This document shows, one piece after another, positions 10,303 to 54,020 of a DNA stretch of 64,000 nt. The translations under genes and the position numbers were made by a program. The notes under the pieces are model-generated. The model was given only the letters and a program-made list of their open reading frames with translations. It made no database searches and was not told the origin of the DNA. The stretch lies in NCBI GenBank assembly GCA_951406725.2, contig OX597829.1:2604001-2668000 (forward strand), given 5' to 3'. The DNA is from Octopus vulgaris (Eukaryota). Position 1 is the stretch's first letter. Every line of letters starts with the position of its first letter.

Positions 10303-12384
10303 ACCTATTTCTTTACTACCCACAAGGGGCTAAACACAGAGGAGACAAACAAGGACAGACAAACGGGTTAAGTCGATTATATCGGCCCCCAGTGCATAAC
10401 TGGTACTTATTTAATCGACCCCGGGAGGATGAAAGGCAAAGTCGACCTCGGCGGAATTTGAACTCAGAACGTAACGGCAGACGAAATACCTATTTCTTTA
10501 CTACCCACAAGGGGCTAAACACAGAGGAGACAAACAAGGACAGACAAACGGGTTAAGTCGATTATATCGGCCCCCAGTGCATAACTGGTACTTATTTAAT
10601 CGACCCCGGGAGGATGAAAGGCAAAGTCGACCTCGGCGGAATTTGAACTCAGAACGTAACGGCAGACGAAATACCTATTTCTTTACTACCCACAAGGGGC
10701 TAAACACAGAGGAGACAAACATGGACAGACAAACGGGTTAAGTCGATTATATCGACCCCAGTGCATAACTGGTACTTATTTAATCGACCCCGGGAGGATG
10801 AAAGGCAAAGTCGACCTCGGCGGAATTTGAACTCAGAACGTAACGGCAGACGAAATAACTATTTCTTTACTACCCACAAGGGGCTAAACACAGAGGAGAC
10901 AAACATGGACAGACAAACGGGTTAAGTCGATTATATCGACCCCAGTGCATAACTGGTACTTATTTAATCGACCCCGGGAGGATGAAAGGCAAAGTCGACC
11001 TCGGCGGAATTTGAACTCAGAACGTAACGGCAGACGAAATACCTATTTCTTTACTACCCACAAGGGGCTAAACACAGAGGAGACAAACATGGACAGACAA
11101 ACGGGTTAAGTCGATTATATCGGCCCCCAGTGCATAACTGGTACTTATTTAATCGACCCCGGGAGGATGAAAGACAAAGTCGACCTCGGCGGAATTTGAA
11201 CTCAGAACGTAACGGCAGACGAAATACCTATTTCTTTACTACCCACAAGGGACTAAACACAGAGGAGACAAACAAGGACAGACAAACGGGTTAAGTCGAT
11301 TATATCGGCCCCCAGTGCATAACTGGTACTTATTTAATCGACCCCGGGAGGATGAAAGGCAAAGTCGACCTCGGCGGAATTTGAACTCAGAACGTAACGG
11401 CAGACGAAATACCTATTTCTTTACTACCCACAAGGGGCTAAACACAGAGGAGACAAACAAGGACAGACAAACGGGTTAAGTCGATTATATCGGCCCCCAG
11501 TGCATAACTGGTACTTATTTAATCGACCCCGGGAGGATGAAAGGCAAAGTCGACCTCGGCGGAATTTGAACTCAGAACGTAACGGCAGACGAAATACCTA
11601 TTTCTTTACTACCCACAAGGGACTAAACACAGAGGAGACAAACAAGGACAGACAAACGGGTTAAGTCGATTATATCGGCCCCCAGTGCATAACTGGTACT
11701 TATTTAATCGACCCCGGGAGGATGAAATGCAAAGTCGACCTCGGCGGCATTTGAACTCAGAACGTAACGGCAGACGAAATACCTATTTCTTTACTACCCA
11801 CAAGGGGCTAAACACAGAGGAGACAAACAAGGACAGACAAACGGGTTAAGTCGATTATATCGGCCCCCAGTGCATAACTGGTACTTATTTAATCGACCCC
11901 GGGAGGATGAAAGGCAAAGTCGACCTCGGCGGAATTTGAACTCAGAACGTAACGGCAGACGAAATACCTATTTCTTTACTACCCACAAGGGGCTAAACAC
12001 AGAGGAGACAAACAAGGACAGACAAACGGGTTAAGTCGATTATATCGGCCCCCAGTGCATAACTGGTACTTATTTAATCGACCCCGGGAGGATGAAAGGC
12101 AAAGTCGACCTCGGCGGAATTTGAACTCAGAACGTAACGGCAGACGAAATACCTACTTCTTTACTACCCACAAGGGACTAAACACAGAGGGGACAAACAA
12201 GGACAGACATAGGTATTAAGTCGATTACATCGACCCCAGTGCGTAACTGGTACTTATTTAATCAACCCCGGGAGGATGAAAGGCAAAGTCGACCTCGGCG
12301 GAATTTGAACTCAGAACGTAACGGCAGACGAAATACTGCTAAGCAATTCGCCCGGCGTGCTAACGATTCTGCCAACTCGCCGCC
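10303..12384 (-). repeat. Tandem array of 11 SINE-A units (184-185-bp period) capped by a single SINE head
   Basis: Units start at 10303, 10488, 10673, 10857, 11041, 11226, 11411, 11596, 11781, 11966 and 12151. The whole array is bounded by cttttga(c/g)agacacctat (10291-10308 / 12399-12416). Confidence 0.97.
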
Positions 12385-15189: not shown

Positions 15190-16388
15190 AAATTCGGTCA
15201 TACCTATTTCATTACTACCCACAAGGGGCTAAACAAATTCGGTCATACCTGCCTTCCCTTACTACCCACAAGGGGCCAAACAAATTCGGTCATACCTGCC
15301 TTCCCTTACTACCCACAAGGGGCCAAACAAATTCGGTCATACCTGCCTTCCCTTACTACCCACAAGGGGCTAAACAAATTCGGTCATACCTGCCTTCCCT
15401 TACTACCCACAAGGGGCCAAACAAATTCGGTCATACCTGCCTTCCCTTACTACCCACAAGGGGCTAAACAAATTCGGTCATACCTGCCTTCCCTTACTAC
15501 CCACAAGGGGCCAAACAAATTCGGTCATACCTGCCTTCCCTTACTACCCACAAGGGGCCAAACAAATTCGGTCATACCTGCCTTCCCTTACTACCCACAA
15601 GGAGCCAAACAAATTCGGTCATACCTGCCTTCCCTTACTACCCACAAGGGGCCAAACAAATTCGGTTATACCTGCCTTCCCTTACTACCCACAAGGGGCC
15701 AAACAAATTCGGTCATACCTGCCTTCCCTTACTACCCACAAGGAGCCAAACAAATTCGGTCATACCTGCCTTCCCTTACTACCCACAAGGGGCCAAACAA
15801 ATTCGGTCATACCTGCCTTCCCTTACTACCCACAAGGGGCTAAACAAATTCGGTCATACCTGCCTTCCCTTACTACCCACAAGGGGCTAAACAAATTCGG
15901 TCATACCTGCCTTCCCTTACTACCCACAAGGGGCCAAACAAATTCGGTCATACCTGCCTTCCCTTACTACCCACAAGGGGCCAAACAAATTCGGTCATAC
16001 CTGCCTTCCCTTACTACCCACAAGGGGCCAAACAAATTCGGTCATACCTGCCTTCCCTTACTACCCACAAGGGGCCAAACAAATTCGGTCATACCTGCCT
16101 TCCCTTACTACCCACAAGGGGCCAAACAAATTCGGTCATACCTGCCTTCCCTTACTACCCACAAGGGGCCAAACAAATTCGGTCATACCTGCCTTCCCTT
16201 ACTACCCACAAGGAGCCAAACAAATTCGGTCATACCTGCCTTCCCTTACTACCCACAAGGGGCCAAACAAATTCGGTCATACCTGGCTTCCCTTACTACC
16301 CACAAGGGGCCAAACAAATTCGGTCATACCTGCCTTCCCTTACTACCCACAAGGGGCCAAACAAATTCGGTCATACCTGCCTTCCCTT
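15190..16388. repeat. 47-bp minisatellite, ~25 copies, derived from the SINE-A 3' tail plus target-site sequence
   Basis: Unit aaattcggtcatacctgccttcccttactacccacaagggg(c/t)caaac-like; the first unit retains the near-native SINE tail acctatttcattactacccacaaggggctaaac. Confidence 0.97.
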
Positions 16389-21092: not shown

Positions 21093-21135
<43 letters not shown>

Positions 21136-21332
21136 TTGAGTTCGTTGCACTGAAGAGCATAGAATGCATATTCTGCATTGATTGCGAAATCACAGGTGAT
21201 ATGCAACTAAATTCTGTTTTTAAATGACTCGCTTGGAAGTTTTGCATTCGGTACAATTTGTTTATTTTAGTAGTTTTGACTGTAAAAGTCCCTCCTAGCG
21301 TGCAACCTATGAATAATAGTACCCGCTATATA

Positions 21333-30413: not shown

Positions 30414-31254
30414 TTAAGCTCACACACACACACACACACACACACACGAATGTATATGCGCTTGTGTGTGTATATACTATAGTTTTTATTTCCAGAATAT
30501 TTGATATATTTTCACAGTTCAAAAGCAACTTGTAATAAATTTACATGACATACCCGTCCACACCCCAAAGCTATTATCGTGATAACACTTACGTACAGCT
30601 GATTATGATCTAGACTGTGGCTTTGGTATCAACACCACATAGTTTACTGCCATATCTAGATATTAGCATTCCTATCACTTCTCTGCTTCAGAGATTTTGT
30701 TATTTTTATTATTTTCTCCAATTTCCGATTTGCAAAAGTCATTCAGAGTGCGATTTAATATATCGGAGTTTTTTTTCCGGTTAGACTACGTTGGTTTCTA
30801 TTCCTGACGTTCGGAAAATTTTCCATGACATAAGTAATTTGCTCCGATGTTTTGTTGCGCTCGACAACTTTCTTGGATGTATATTGTTAATAAAAACGAA
30901 TATTCAAAGAATTACATTCCGAGGAACTTCAATCCAATTTCCATAACTTTTCATGTAGGCAGACTTATTGCCATGGACGTTCTTCATTGTGTCATTGCGA
31001 GTAGGTTCTACTTGAATAATACGACATTAAAAGGTTGTTGGAATCTATATTAACTCTCTGCCTTCTTATTTTTGTTCTATGAACGGCCGTTCAAAATCAC
31101 TTTTGATGAGGAAATGTTATTGAGGTAGTGCTTAAAAGATATCAACTCGTGTCTATTTGAATGGCCAAAAAGATGTATTACAACTGATTTCGAGTTCTAA
31201 CATATATTATTAATAATATTATAAGTCACTGATCTATAAAATGCGCTTTACGTG

Positions 31255-32011
31255 AAGTGTACTCATTCCGATCGCGGGGCCTCGACAGAGTCCCGCGTCG
31301 TTATTTTTCGTCACTACCTCCCCGTGCCGGGAGTGGGTAATTTGCGCGCCTGCTGCCTTCCTTGGATGTGGTAGCCGTTTCGCATGCTCCCTCTCCGGAA
31401 TCGAACCCTGATTCCCCGTTACCCGTTGCCACCACGGTCGGCACTGACCGGGCCGTCGACAGTTGATAGGGCGGACTCGCGGGGGACCCGTCGCGCGAAG
31501 GCTAGTGCGATACTAGCCCGTGCGATCGTACTGACAGTTATCCAGAGTCACCAAAATCGAAGGACGTGAAGCCGCCGCACGCCTAAGACCCGCGCGCGGA
31601 AGGCGCGGCGGCTGCTGCGACGGCCCGTACGCGTCGGTCTCAGTCTAATATTTGCGCCGCGACCAATGCGGAAGGCCGACCGTATCGTCGCGACCGGGAG
31701 GGACGGGCGCGGATGCGCCGCCCCAGGTCCGGCCGAGCGGACGCCGGCGGCGAACGACGGCGACGGCTGCCGAACGCCGTTTTCGAGCCCGACGCCCGGG
31801 TGCGACCTGCGATCGCGGCTTCGGTTGCATGTATTAGCTCTAGAATTGCCACAGTTATCCACTCTCCTCGCGGTGGAAGAATACGGTCCCGAGGATTAGG
31901 TCCGGTTCCTGAGCCATTCGCGGTTTCACCATTCGTTTACGGCATGAACTTACACTTGCATGGCTTAAGCTTTGAGACAAGCATATGACTACTGGCAGGA
32001 TCAACCAGGTA
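31255..32011 (-). rRNA. 18S rRNA: 18S rRNA 5' fragment (orphan/pseudogenic, 3'-truncated) with a GC-rich expanded V2 region
   Basis: Starts TACCTGGTTGATCCTGCCAGTAG at 32011; contains the universal motifs CTACCACATCCAAGGAAGGCAGCAGGCGCGCAAATTACCCA and GGAATGAGTACAC. Confidence 0.97.
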
Positions 32012-34400: not shown

Positions 34401-35591
34401 CAGGCCCGACCGACCCGGTCCTCGGAGCCAATCCTTCTTCTGAAGGTACGGATCCATTTTGCCGACTTCCCTTACCTACATTGGCGCTATCGACGAGAGG
34501 CTGTACACCTTGGAGACCTGCTGCGGATGGTGGGTACGGACCGACTCGAGAGCTGCGATTCGTTACGGACCCGGATTTTCCAGGGCCGCCGAGAGCGCAC
34601 CGGACGCCGCCCGAGACGCGGCGCTCTACAGGTACCATATCCGTATCTCCGGACGAGCCGATTCCACGGACGCGGTCCTTTACGAAGAAGAGAGAACTCT
34701 TCCCGGGGCTCCCGGCAACGTCTCCGGGCTCGCTTGCGTTGCCGCTGCTTCGCCCGGCCGCCGGCTTCGACGACGGACGCGCTGCTAGGAAGAGCACGCC
34801 GCGTTCCCGCCGACGGACGGGCACTCTCCGAGTTCGGGTTAGGGAATATTAACCCGATTCCCTTTCGATGCGAGGCCGGCCGCGTAAATCGATATCGAAC
34901 CGCGCGAGAGCAGTTCTTTTCTTTCTAAACGACGGATCCGGCGCCTTTCGTGGAAGCTTTCGCCCGCTTCTTAGGACCGACTGACCCGTGCTCGACCGCC
35001 GTTGGCACGGAACCCTTCTCCACTTCGGTCTTCGAAGGTCTCGTTCGAATATTTGCTACTACCACCGAGATCTGCACCCGCGGTCGGCTTCACCCGGGCT
35101 CGCGCCCGCGGCTTCCATGCACGCCGCGGCGCCCTCCTACTCGACCGGGCATCGGAAAGTCGCCTCGCCGGCGATCGCGCAACCTGTCGCCCGGCCGGTC
35201 CGGCATCGGTCGCTCGCTCCAGCGCCATCCATTTTCGGGGCCGGTCGATTCGGCAGGTAAGTTGTTACACACTCCTGAGCGGATTCCGACTTCCGTGGCC
35301 ACCGTCCTGCTGTCTATATCGACCGACACCCTTTCGGGGATCTAATGGGCGAAGCGTAGGGCACCTTAGCCGGACGTTCGGTTCATCCCACATCACCAGT
35401 TCTGCTTACCAAAAGTGGCCCACTTGGCACCGTGCATTCGTCGTCGCATAACGGCGGCCGCCTCCGATCGGGAGAGGAGCGGCCCGTTTCGCCCGTTCCG
35501 AGTTCGAGAGTAGATCGAGGCCGTCAACGTCCCCGGGGCCTCCAGTCGTTTGCTTTACCGGACGGAATTGCGTGTCGTTCTCCCGCTGGCG

Positions 35592-35634
<43 letters not shown>

Positions 35635-36222
35635 CGGCTCGATTGGTCTTTCGCCCCTACACCCGGTTCCGACGATCGATTTGCACGTCAGAGGCGCTTC
35701 GGACTTCCACCAGAGTTTCCTCTGGCTTCGTCCCGACCGGGCGTGGATCGCCATCTTTCGGGTCCCCGGCCGCCTGCTACACCTGAGTCGGAGCGGGAAC
35801 GCCGGACGCGAACGTCGCGGCGAACGCGCGGACCCGACCCGGGAACGATGCTTCGAAGCGCCGTCCCGCCGAAGCGAGACGGCGACGTCGTGTCACGTTC
35901 TCGCTTTCGCTGTGCCGTCGGAGTTCGCGAAGTGAAAGGCTCCAACGACTCGCAGTCGACTGGGACTCCTCGGTCCGTGTTTCAAGACGGGTCGGGTAGG
36001 TTGCCGATGCTCGTCGCTGACCGGCGGCAGCGGGCGGCTTTTCGGGCGGAAGGTGTCCCGCGACCGCAACGCGCGTCGCCCCCTTGCGAGGGTTTCCGCG
36101 CAGTCGCGGCGCGCGGGCGGCCGCGTCGCTCGCGACCTCCGGAAAGAGGCCGCGCGCGACTCGCTGCGTCGTTCGTGCTAAGGGCGAGGTGCGTTTGCCC
36201 GTCTCCGTCGGTTAGCCGTGCC
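34400..36222 (-). rRNA. 28S rRNA: 28S rRNA internal fragment (within D2 to the start of D8), truncated at both ends
   Basis: Conserved blocks GACCCGTCTTGAAACACGGACC, CCGAAGTTTCCCTCAGGATAGC, CCACTTTTGGTAAGCAGAACTGG, CGAAAGGGAATCGGGTTAATATTCC and GTAAGGGAAGTCGGCAAAATGGATCCGTA. Confidence 0.97.
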
Positions 36223-43257: not shown

Positions 43258-44557
43258 TAGGCGCAGGAGTGACTGTGTGATAAGATAACAACCACTTAGT
43301 TCAGGGTTCAGCCCCACTGCTTGACACTTTGGGCAAGTGTGTCTTCTACTATAGCCTCGTGAGTGGATTTGTTAGACCTATATGTATGTGTGTTTATATA
43401 TATATATATATATATATAAGTGTGTGAAGGTGCATGGCTCAGTGGTTAGATCGTGAGGCTGTGAGTTCGAATCCCAGACCGTGCTGCGTGTTGTGTTCTT
43501 GAGCAAGAGACTTTATTTCACATTCCTTCAGTTTACTCAGCTGTAGAAATGTGTTGCGCCGTTACTGGTGCCAAGCTGTATCGGCCCCTTTTGCCTTTCC
43601 CTTGGATAACACTGGTGGCGTGGAGAGGGGAGTCCGGTATGCATGGGTGACTGCTGGTCTTCCATAAACAACCTTGCCCGGACTTGTGCCTCGGAGGCTA
43701 ACTTTGTAGGTGCAATCATATGGACATGCATAACCAAAAGGGGTTTCTTATATGTATGCGTGTGTATATGTTTGTGCGTCTGTGTTTGTCCCCCCAACAT
43801 TGACAACCGATGTTGGTAAGTTTACGTTCCCGTTGCTTAGCGGTCCCGGAAAGACTTCCGCCCGTCCCCATTATTTTGTCCCAAATTTGTTTATTTAAAA
43901 AACTTTTTTTTCCAAAATTCCTTGTTTTCAGATATGGAGGTTCCGGAAAACTGCCAAAATTCAGCATTGTGAAATTTCCACCCAACTTCTTCAATTTTGA
44001 CTTTTTCCCCAACGCTAACCCTAAAACCCTAACCTTAAAGCCCTAACCCTAACCCTAACTCTAAAACCCCAACCCTAACCCTAACACCTTAGCCCTAACT
44101 CTAAAACCCTAACCGTAACCGTAAGTACAGGAATGTTTTGAAATTTTTATGCGAATCATAATGTCCGTATTTTTCTGCATATTTAGAAAACAAAAAGAAA
44201 AATTCATTAAAAAATTTTCCGCATATTTTGAAAAAAAAAAATTTTTTTTTTAAATGAAAAATGAAGGAAATGGGGGTGGGGGGATGGTAATTTAGAAATG
44301 TCGATTTTTGCTAATTTTTTTGCAGATTCGTATTTCCCGTAGCCGAAAAGTGGGGTTTGTGTGAAAAAAAAAAATTTAAGGATGGTTTTCTTTTTTTGGG
44401 GTGGGGGGCGAAGTCTTGCGGCGGTTCAGCAAAAGAGACCGATAGAATAAATACTAAGCTTACAAAGAATAAGTCCTGGGGTTGATTTGTTCGTCTAAAG
44501 GCGGTGCTCCAGCATGGCCGCAGTCACATGACTGAAACAAGTAAAAGAGTAAAAGAA
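43258..44557 (+). mobile_element. SINE family B split by two nested insertions
   Basis: Head at 43258, body resuming at ~43750 and 44421. A nested tRNA-SINE lies at ~43428-43720 (tggctcagtgg...gagttcgaatccc) and a TIR-like element at 43845-44420. Confidence 0.85.
43845..44420. mobile_element. MITE-like insertion carrying degenerate telomeric (CCCTAA)n repeats (~44015-44123)
   Basis: Imperfect TIRs ccggaaagacttccgccc / gggcgaagtcttgcg; duplicated gcggt at the host SINE break. Confidence 0.7.
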
Positions 44558-44777: not shown

Positions 44778-45070
<293 letters not shown>

Positions 45071-45390
45071 ATAATAATAAATATTAGGGAATAAATCCAA
45101 ATTTACAGGGAAAAAAATCAGATTTAGGATTAAATCCAATTTTATAGTAAAATATTATATAATATTAATTAGAGACAAAACCACTATTTTGCAAAACAAA
45201 CAAGGAAAGACTTAATCAATACATAAAATTTTAATAAAAAGTAAAAAATAAAAAGTAAAAAATAAAAAATAAAAAGTAAAAAAAAGTAAAAAATAAAAAG
45301 TAAAAAATAAAAAATAAAAAGTAAAAAAGATTTTATGCATTGATTAAGTCTTTCCTTGTTTGTTTTGCAAAATAGTGGTTTTGTCTCTAA

Positions 45391-45446
<56 letters not shown>

Positions 45447-45554
45447 AATAAAATCAAAAACAGACCACAAAGGATGTCGCGGTACACGTGTTTCAAGCTT
45501 TATAAACGACCTATTCTAACTCTTTGGAGTAACTCTTTGGAATAAACAATGCAT

Positions 45555-45645
45555 GCGGCTGAAGAAAGCTTTAAACCATCCTTCATATCTATTATACACT
45601 GATGTAAGAATATGTCGTTTATAAAGCTTGAAACACGTGTACCGC
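45555..45645 (+). ncRNA. Canonical minimal type-I hammerhead ribozyme in a Penelope-like pLTR with an upstream inverted partial copy
   Basis: Stem I GCGG/CCGC; core CUGAAGA (45559-45565); stem II AAGCUUUA/UAAAGCUU; GAAA (45630-45633); palindromic stem III ACACGUGU; cleavage triplet GUA (after 45641). Confidence 0.85.
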
Positions 45646-45759
45646 GACATCCTTTGTGGTCTGTTTTTGATTTTATTTGATATATATACCTTCTCACCTC
45701 AGCCACTAGCTGGCGTATACAGGTGCTTACACTTATCAAGTGTTCACCCTAATTTTACA

Positions 45760-45823
<64 letters not shown>

Positions 45824-46320: not shown

Positions 46321-46544
46321 ACCTATTTCTTTATTTGCACCAAGGGGTTAAACACAGAGGGGACAAACAAGGACAGACAAACGGATTAAGTCGATTACAT
46401 CGACCCCAGTGCGTAACTGGTACTTAATTTATCGACCCCGAAAGGATGTCGGCCTCGGCGAAATTTGAACTCAGAACGTAGCGGCAGACGAAATAGGGCT
46501 ACGGATTTCGCCCGGCACGCTAACGTTTCTGATAGCTCGCCGCC
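46321..46544 (-). mobile_element. SINE family A
   Basis: Full head and tail; flanking repeat tac(g/a)tcattaatata. Confidence 0.9.
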
Positions 46545-47209
46545 TTTTACATCATTAATATATAAGTGCATGTGTGTGTGTGTGTATGAAAAGGAGGCGT
46601 CTGTCTCCAAAACGTCAAAGCTGAGTAAGGTTTTCATGCTTGGATTTGTAAACTACGATAAGAATAACATTGGTCAACAAAGAATTTGTCCTAAGAAAAA
46701 GAACACCTGTATCTGATAATGATTTTGCGTGCAGAATTCAAAAATAATGTCAAATTATCTGTACCAAGTTCACATATTCCATTCACCTTCATAATGCCAA
46801 GAAACTGTATAAACATCGCAAACAACTTTTGCTGTATATGAATAATATGTAAAATATTAAGACAATTGACGAAAAATATCTATCAAAATTCAAATTATTA
46901 AATATGAATTTTTATTAAAACAAAACAGGCGGGTGAAGTAAATCTCGTGGTGCGAAGAATCCACAGAAGCGGGTGTAACACAATACAACGTGCGGATGTC
47001 ATGGTAAGAAGGTGTTAATGCCACACTGTCTGTTGATTGGCTAAAATTACCCAAATTTCCCAACTTTAATTCCAAATAACATCAGATTCTGTAATTTACG
47101 AGATAAAGTAATTGGTTGATCGTAATTAAAATTCGGAGTTGCATCGATACACCAAAATTGATAGCAATCTGAGCAAAATTGTGAATGAAAAAGACTAGAT
47201 CCGTTCAAT

Positions 47210-53157: not shown

Positions 53158-53189
53158 CAGATAAATAGATACCGATTCATCCTGTCAGG

Positions 53190-54020
53190 GAACTGATATA
53201 ATACTAGTGGCTAGAGGTACGTTGATAGATTTTGACGGTAAACTCTGGTGCGTAGTAGATGGAGTTGACGCCTTTGATATAGAGATGGGATCATCCAACC
53301 CCGCATAAGTCTCTGGTTTGGTTGGCGTCTACATCCTATCCCTAATGCAAGCCACACTCCCAGCCTATATAGGAACTATACTTTCTTCTACTTGAACCGC
53401 AACACAAACGTAGACGTAGAATGGCGTAAGAAAAAAACTATTTAAGATATCTAAAAATGTATGACTAACTATCATCAGAAACTGAATGCTGCAGTGTTAA
53501 CTTCCTGGATACCACATTCAACCTTGACACCGGCCTATACAAGTCATTCCACAAACCTAATGCCAGCTTAAAATACATTAATGCCATGTCTAATCATTCA
53601 GCATCCATTACATGGGAGCTAGTAAATAATATTTAGACTAGGATATTCCGATTGTCTGCCAGTGAAGGAATATTCAACTTGCAAGCATCCTATTATAATG
53701 AGGCTTAGCAAGTACAGGATTCGGAGAACGGATTAAGTACATACATGAAAACAACACACAAATATACGACACACACAAAACAACGGTAACCAAGCAAGTA
53801 GAACACATACCTACAGAAATTACATCGGCCCAAAACACCACTACGGTCATATAACAATAATCAAATTACCAACCCTTCTACCGAAAAAAACTCCCACCTG
53901 AACACAACACAGCAATATAGAATACATCAAATACACACAAAAGGAAATAGAAAAATCACACCGTACTCTGGTACAACCCGATCAACGGATCGAATGTTTC
54001 TACGAGGATCACTAAACAGT
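53190..54020 (+). pseudogene. Decayed Penelope-like retroelement reverse transcriptase
   Basis: Motifs 'FDIEMGS...LVGVYILS', 'VNFLDTTFNLDTGLYKSFHKPN...YINAMSNH', 'RLSASEGIFN' and 'LWYNP', with in-frame stops. Confidence 0.85.

What the first reader, a model, noticed from the sequence alone, without database searches (positions are those of the whole stretch)
45438..45690. Intact hammerhead overlapped by its own antisense arm
Seen: a fully canonical minimal hammerhead (CUGAAGA, 8-bp stem II with a 48-nt loop, GAAA, palindromic ACACGUGU, GUA site). Its 3' half (~45613-45687) is complementary to an upstream inverted copy (~45438-45510). Inference: transcripts starting within the spacer could self-cleave, probably as dimers, whereas read-through transcripts would sequester the ribozyme in a ~70-bp duplex, giving a built-in on/off arrangement. 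This is the best candidate for a functional RNA in the window.
Basis: partly seen in the sequence, partly recalled or inferred. Interest (0 to 1): 0.7.

Follow-up and report, generated by a model that had tools for sequence, protein, structure and literature searches.

The report
Penelope retrotransposon stub with hammerhead
The self-cutting RNA motif and its mirror-image arm are really in the sequence, but they are the cut-short end of a Penelope-type jumping gene present in hundreds of copies, and the mirror arm is most likely a routine by-product of how these elements insert rather than a built-in on/off switch.

Summary
Observation confirmed: a type I minimal hammerhead (45554-45646) and a perfect 75-nt inverted arm (45436-45510 against 45614-45688). 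The unit is larger than reported. It is a 5'-truncated 3' end (pLTR plus a ~72-nt tail, to 45761) of a Penelope-like retrotransposon, joined head to head with a tail-less inverted copy inside a (TA)n repeat. The family has at least 324 exact core matches in the genome. Longer copies link this end to an RT + GIY-YIG ORF with Hydra-clade motifs. 19 of 54 sampled loci carry the same inverted arrangement, always with one tail. Breakpoints vary, and 5 of the 19 have no complete ribozyme in either arm. Stems and palindrome covary across sister families, so the ribozyme is under selection in the element lineage. Inserted copies gather private changes at similar rates in core and loop. The layout is textbook for Penelope-like elements, and a published Hydra element already carries an antisense hammerhead copy. 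The hairpin would block the ribozyme in a read-through RNA, but nothing shows a switch, a promoter or expression. Earlier scan notes reached the same reading on other DNA. Ordinary.

The parts
45394..45444 (.). (TA)n microsatellite, left flank and insertion target
   Evidence: sequence
45436..45520 (-). Inverted, 5'-truncated, tail-less copy of the element's 3' end. It holds only the 3' half of the hammerhead (no CUGANGA on the minus strand). Perfect match to the direct arm over 45436-45510
   Evidence: reference copy L007 positions 575-656
45517..45545 (+). Head-to-head junction with a 13-nt near-duplication, likely a re-priming or microhomology scar (inferred)
   Evidence: period 13, 2.2 copies; 8-nt gap between the aligned arms
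45529..45688 (+). Direct 5'-truncated pLTR (3' end of the Penelope-like element), 92-96% identical to the best other copies
45554..45646 (+). Type I minimal hammerhead: stem I 5 bp, CUGAAGA 45559-45565, stem II 8 bp with 48-nt loop, GAAA 45630-45633, palindrome 45633-45640, predicted cut after A45641
45689..45761 (+). Optional 'tail' of about 72 nt, present on one arm only. It is homologous to the sequence between the upstream pLTR and the ORF start in a full-length sister copy (L107)
45761..45821 (.). (TA)n microsatellite, right flank

Best explanation
This is a 5'-truncated insertion of a Penelope-like retrotransposon, likely of the Hydra clade: the hammerhead-bearing 3' end with its tail sits head to head with a shorter inverted copy inside a TA repeat, and the inverted arm is most likely an integration by-product, not an on/off switch. 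Shown: family membership, linkage of this end to an RT + GIY-YIG ORF, the one-tail inverted layout, variable breakpoints, and covariation of the ribozyme across families. Inferred mechanism: the element's GIY-YIG endonuclease cut the (TA)n target. RT started at the two internal start points that define the tailed and tail-less 3' ends (as shown in vitro for PAc, PMC11167929). Both cDNAs stopped early and were joined head to head. The two arms likely came from the same template RNA. In full-length tandem copies the hammerhead would process element RNA as a dimer through its palindrome. In this stub it is likely a passive passenger, silent in any read-through RNA because the hairpin wins.
For: 324 exact matches to a 21-nt core pattern, 0 to the reversed control; 1269 first-look candidates. 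In L081 the same end (90% identical over 217 nt) lies downstream of a broken ORF aligning to residues 234-841 of an intact 842-aa sister ORF, with an inverted truncated copy upstream. L083 and L109/L110 show the same linkage. Motifs: CxCx5C linker, YIG, CxxC and CxH in L081 and L083; DKT, RWA/RWK and YRDD in sister ORFs L106 and L114. These match the Hydra definition in PMC8557442 section 11. 19 of 54 distinct loci are inverted pairs, all 19 with exactly one tail; 3' ends cluster at two points (41 tailed, 32 tail-less, 3 other). Compensatory pairs in all three helices across 6 copies from 3 families: 93.6% of cells paired, 16 cells changed on both sides, slid controls 24-47%. Singleton rates per site and copy: core 0.010, stems 0.015, loop 0.013, flanks 0.021 (34 arms). 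Arms of one insertion disagree at 8 of 97 subfamily-diagnostic sites against about 38% for random pairs (14 pairs). The window's two arms share a variant seen in 2 of 62 arms.
Against: No full-length intact copy of the window's own family was found; the linked ORFs (L081, L083, L109) are broken, and the intact ORFs belong to sister families (about 81% and 57% identical in the RT piece). Pfam gave no RT hit and only a sub-threshold GIY-YIG hit (E 0.03; nothing relevant). The clade call rests on motifs, not on a tree with reference sequences. Loci were ranked by likeness to the window, so the 19-of-54 share and the intactness counts (38 of 44 arms with an intact core, 25 fully intact) are not genome-wide estimates. 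Core singletons are slightly below the flank rate, so weak selection on copies is not excluded. Arm concordance could also come from gene conversion, and in 5 of 14 pairs the arms were not clearly closer to each other than to other copies.
Confidence: 0.93

Rival explanations
1. One reading: a selected on/off device in which transcripts starting in the spacer self-cleave as dimers and read-through transcripts are protected by the antisense arm.
For: The physics works: stems I and II form in the isolated motif (stem I pairs 0.27-0.98, stem II pairs 0.39-0.87) and vanish in the read-through fold. The core of this copy is intact.
Against: Breakpoints are scattered and the four arm configurations occur 5/4/5/5 times. 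35 of 54 loci lack the adjacent inverted arm. Only 33 nt of spacer (45521-45553) lie between the arm and stem I, and the pLTR's upstream part is truncated away. With the natural downstream sequence (45518-45761) stem I is lost even without the arm (probability 0.0). Cleavage would need a second molecule in trans. The same geometry occurs in other families, with or without a detected hammerhead.
Confidence: 0.03
2. A MITE or foldback DNA transposon whose terminal inverted repeats happen to contain a hammerhead.
For: Short, non-coding, perfect inverted ends, TA-flanked.
Against: Unit length is not fixed: 5' ends vary continuously while 3' ends are fixed. Most copies have no second arm. Long copies lead into RT + GIY-YIG coding sequence.
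Confidence: 0.01
3. A non-autonomous retrozyme (tandem hammerhead monomers making circular RNA) derived from the pLTR.
For: Retrozymes are reported to derive from Penelope-like ends (bioRxiv 10.64898/2026.07.22.740005, passages).
Against: No direct tandem of hammerhead monomers at this locus or among loci L001-L060; here one sense hammerhead and one antisense half.
Confidence: 0.03

Closest known systems
Endonuclease-positive Penelope-like insertions with inverted 5'-truncated pLTR and optional tail (PMC3846280; PMC8557442 Fig. 2 legend; tail mechanism in PMC11167929)
   Same: Head-to-head inverted truncated copy, tail on one arm only, variable 5' truncation, N-rich inserts in the ORF of long copies.
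   Different: The tail is about 72 nt here against the 30-40 nt described. The stub has no coding sequence.
Hydra clade of C-terminal-endonuclease Penelope-like elements (PMC8557442 section 11, files S1 and S2), including Hydra-1_Obim and Penelope-13_HM
   Same: (TA)n targeting, hammerhead near the 3' end, CxCx5C linker, DKT, CxxC and CxH, no CCHH. Penelope-13_HM is listed with a 5'-truncated inverted copy, the hammerhead on both strands, a G.U first pair of stem II and a GUA site.
   Different: A different family from Hydra-1_Obim (its listed hammerhead differs). Long loop II (48 nt against 3-10 nt in the listed Hydra hammerheads), even 8-nt palindrome, long 3' UTR (about 1.7 kb in L081), RWA instead of RWK in the nearest intact sister.
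Minimal dimer-dependent hammerheads of metazoan Penelope-like elements (PMC4209133; reviewed in PMC6765202)
   Same: Type I, stem II 7-8 bp, stem I 4-5 bp, palindromic helix III. The paper already notes hammerhead pairs 100-700 bp apart on opposite strands and low activity in vitro.
   Different: A-U, G.U or A.C at 10.1-11.1 rather than G-C. Cleavage was not tested here.

Membership tests
Endonuclease-positive Penelope-like element | 3' end linked to one ORF with RT followed by a GIY-YIG endonuclease | tested here: met
   L081, L083, L109/L110 by blastn and tblastn; broken ORFs in this family, intact in sister families; Pfam support weak
Endonuclease-positive Penelope-like element | pLTR repeated upstream of the ORF in full-length copies | tested here: met
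   Sister copies L107 and L117 carry a ~70% identical pLTR plus tail just before the ORF; L107 and L114 have direct repeats at both ends. Not seen in a copy of the window's own family
Endonuclease-positive Penelope-like element | Inverted 5'-truncated copy with the tail on one end only | tested here: met
   19 of 54 loci, all 19 with one tail
Hydra clade | CxCx5C linker, CxxC and CxH motifs, no CCHH inside the endonuclease core | tested here: met
   L081 and L083 translations, L106 and L114; absence of CCHH judged by eye against figure S2 text
Hydra clade | DKT and RWK motifs | tested here: inconclusive
   DKT in L106 and L114; RWK in L114 but RWA in L106; not read in the window's own family
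Hydra clade | Insertion into (TA)n and a canonical hammerhead | tested here: met
Hydra clade | RT phylogeny with reference elements | not tested
   No reference sequences were on hand as stored proteins; likeness to Hydra-1_Obim RT judged by eye only
Type I minimal hammerhead | CUGANGA, GAAA, NUH site, stems I and II, palindromic helix III | tested here: met
Type I minimal hammerhead | G10.1-C11.1 pair | tested here: not met
   A-U here, G.U in the family; many listed Hydra hammerheads also deviate
Type I minimal hammerhead | Self-cleavage | not testable with these tools
   needs an in vitro assay
MITE / foldback DNA transposon | Fixed unit length with two terminal inverted repeats in most copies | tested here: not met
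Non-LTR retrozyme | Head-to-tail tandem hammerhead monomers | tested here: not met
   none in loci L001-L060

The most novel reading that the evidence does not exclude
The many head-to-head stubs act together as an element-made brake. Read-through transcription gives long perfect hairpins that switch off the hammerhead and feed dsRNA against the pLTR into small-RNA or editing pathways, and both arms are copied from one template in a single reaction.
Probability: 0.08. Interest if true: 0.5.

Novelty: new member of a known kind. Interest (0 to 1): 0.1.

Why it matters
As a single locus it matters little: it is one of hundreds of decaying stubs. Two modest points remain. This genome holds several Hydra-like families with intact ORFs and covarying hammerheads, useful for testing what the ribozyme does. 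The agreement of the two arms at diagnostic sites bears on the open question of how inverted pLTRs form.

Tried and rejected
Rfam: no hammerhead match at gathering or E<=10. The repeat finder was swamped by (TA)n. Pfam on the ORFs: one sub-threshold GIY-YIG hit, nothing relevant for the intact sisters, one GIY-YIG pass among 5 homologues. PDB sequence search: 0 hits. Homologue search: 28 of 114 candidates, only one named, an octopod protein with an uninformative name. Sequencing runs: no RNA holder listed. Laying 4 contig sets showed family-like pieces only and cannot show ends, strand or expression, so it is not used as evidence. Genome search with the neighbouring element returned nothing (the tool skips very common words), although homologues lie in fetched loci. 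The bacterial promoter scan does not apply to an animal genome and was disregarded. Lunse et al. on dimer cleavage was not held and is cited only through the review PMC6765202. I first leaned to the Nematis clade from memory and dropped it. No paper describing an antisense on/off role for inverted pLTRs turned up in the listings; most subscription journals are not covered. Figures of the papers could not be seen.

Full report
Observation. The hammerhead and the inverted arm are in the sequence as described. CUGAAGA lies at 45559, an 8-bp stem II closes a 48-nt loop, GAAA lies at 45630, the palindrome at 45633-45640 and GUA ends at 45641. A perfect 75-nt inverted repeat joins 45436-45510 with 45614-45688. 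The minus strand has no CUGANGA, so the left arm is only the 3' half of the motif. The first pair of stem II is A-U rather than G-C, and helix III has a pair probability of 0.05 in a monomer, while the palindrome gives a -10.3 kcal/mol homoduplex. The unit is flanked on both sides by (TA)n.

It is a repeat family. A search of the own genome (2.8 Gb, 227 contigs; an octopod by inference and from earlier scan notes) gave 1269 candidates, of which 40 were scored. A 21-nt core pattern has 324 exact matches and the reversed control none. Copies have variable 5' ends and two fixed 3' ends: 41 arms end after a ~72-nt tail, 32 end just before it, 3 elsewhere. The window's direct arm carries this tail, so the element ends at 45761, not 45690. 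Of 60 loci duplicates were dropped (5 the same place, 1 segmental duplicate). 19 of the remaining 54 are head-to-head inverted pairs, each with exactly one tail. A complete hammerhead lies in the tailed arm only in 5 (the window among them), in the other arm only in 4, in both in 5 and in neither in 5. These loci were ranked by likeness to the window, so the shares are indicative only.

The parent element. Walking upstream reached L081, where the same end (90% over 217 nt) follows about 1.7 kb of 3' UTR and a broken ORF with RT motifs, an N-rich linker, CxCx5C, YIG, CxxC and CxH. An inverted truncated copy lies at its 5' side. L083 and L109/L110 repeat the linkage. A protein search gave 8123 candidates, 150 scored, including sister families with open frames of 842-980 codons. 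In L107 a pLTR about 70% identical to the window's, followed by the homologue of the tail, runs straight into the ORF start. The tail is therefore the sequence downstream of the upstream pLTR, as reported for PAc (PMC11167929, passages). The motifs fit the Hydra clade (PMC8557442 section 11; supplement parts 2 and 54 and search hits), except RWA for RWK in the nearest intact sister. No tree was built, and Pfam support is weak.

Where selection acts. Across six natural copies from three families, 93.6% of 78 cells pair, with changes on both sides in stem I (3 pairs), stem II (2) and the palindrome (1); slid controls pair at 24-47%. The six rows amount to three lineages and the structure was drawn from them, so this is supportive, not a probability. 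Within the family, singleton changes fall on core, stems and loop at 0.010, 0.015 and 0.013 per site and copy, and on flanks at 0.021. Variants shared by three or more copies occur at 0 of 37 structural columns and 7 times in 94 other columns (34 arms; small numbers). This fits selection on source elements and near-neutral decay after insertion. The window's copy differs from the column majority at 9 sites, one of them the first base of stem II.

How the arm arose. The two arms of the window differ at 1 of 72 compared sites and share a variant found in only 2 of 62 arms. Over 14 pairs with at least 60 nt of overlap, arms disagree at 8 of 97 diagnostic sites, against about 38% expected for random pairs. 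One template, or later gene conversion, explains this; in 5 of the 14 pairs the arms were not clearly closer than random copies. A 13-nt near-duplication at the junction looks like a re-priming scar (inference). An earlier scan note on another locus suggested two parent copies; this family mostly points the other way.

The on/off idea. In a read-through RNA the hairpin forms with probability 1.0 and stems I and II vanish, so sequestration is real physics. It follows from any inverted insertion, though. The spacer leaves 33 nt between the arm and stem I, no start site is known, cleavage needs a partner molecule, and such ribozymes are slow in vitro (PMC4209133, parts 1-2 of 4 read). For PAc, ribozyme mutants did not affect insertion in vitro and no RNA ends were seen at the cut site. 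The neighbouring element at 45061-45408 has the same arm-plus-tail layout, with no hammerhead found by the scan. A second hammerhead family at 21133-21326 also shows a nearby opposite-strand partial or full copy at 10 of its 40 scored places.

What is known. Inverted truncated pLTRs with an optional tail are described as typical (PMC3846280, passages; PMC8557442, passages). Opposite-strand hammerhead pairs 100-700 bp apart were noted in 2014. Penelope-13_HM is listed with its hammerhead on both strands. PMC6765202 (passages) reviews the dimer model. The bioRxiv retrozyme preprint was seen in three passages only; its supplements are closed. I did not check whether this family is in Repbase or Dfam.

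Verdict. A real motif in an ordinary context: a new member of a known kind, interest 0.1. Three earlier scan notes reached the same reading on other DNA; they are not independent evidence.

Noticed in passing
window 21133-21326 (+): A second type I hammerhead (21144-21207; 6-bp stem I, G-C first pair of stem II, palindromic helix III) between two (TA)n runs. It belongs to a younger family (95-97% identity, 2177 candidates) with frequent inverted partners; likely another Penelope-like end.
   Followed up: partly
window 45061-45408: Adjacent element with the same layout: a 74-82 nt inverted repeat around an A-rich spacer, with a tail-like extension on the minus-strand arm. Homologues in L002, L103, L109, L114. 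Parent not identified.
   Followed up: partly
window 53186-53705 (+): Degenerate RT remnant 41-49% identical to the Hydra-like ORF of L106.
   Followed up: no
window 30816-32011 and 34492-35974 (-): Dispersed, partial SSU and LSU rRNA sequence with long GC-rich insertions; probably an orphan rDNA fragment.
   Followed up: no
window 44007-44124: Degenerate interstitial (CCCTAA)n telomere-like array.
   Followed up: no
window 10303-12336 and 15190-16388: Near-perfect tandem arrays (185 nt x 11; 47 nt x 25.6) made from a dispersed repeat also seen near 46330-46550; its SINE identity is recalled, not tested.
   Followed up: no
L106, L107, L116, L117 (842 codons); L114, L115 (976-980 codons): Sister Hydra-like families with long open frames and near-identical copies, suggesting recent activity. 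Their hammerheads have A.C or G.U at the base of stem II.
   Followed up: partly
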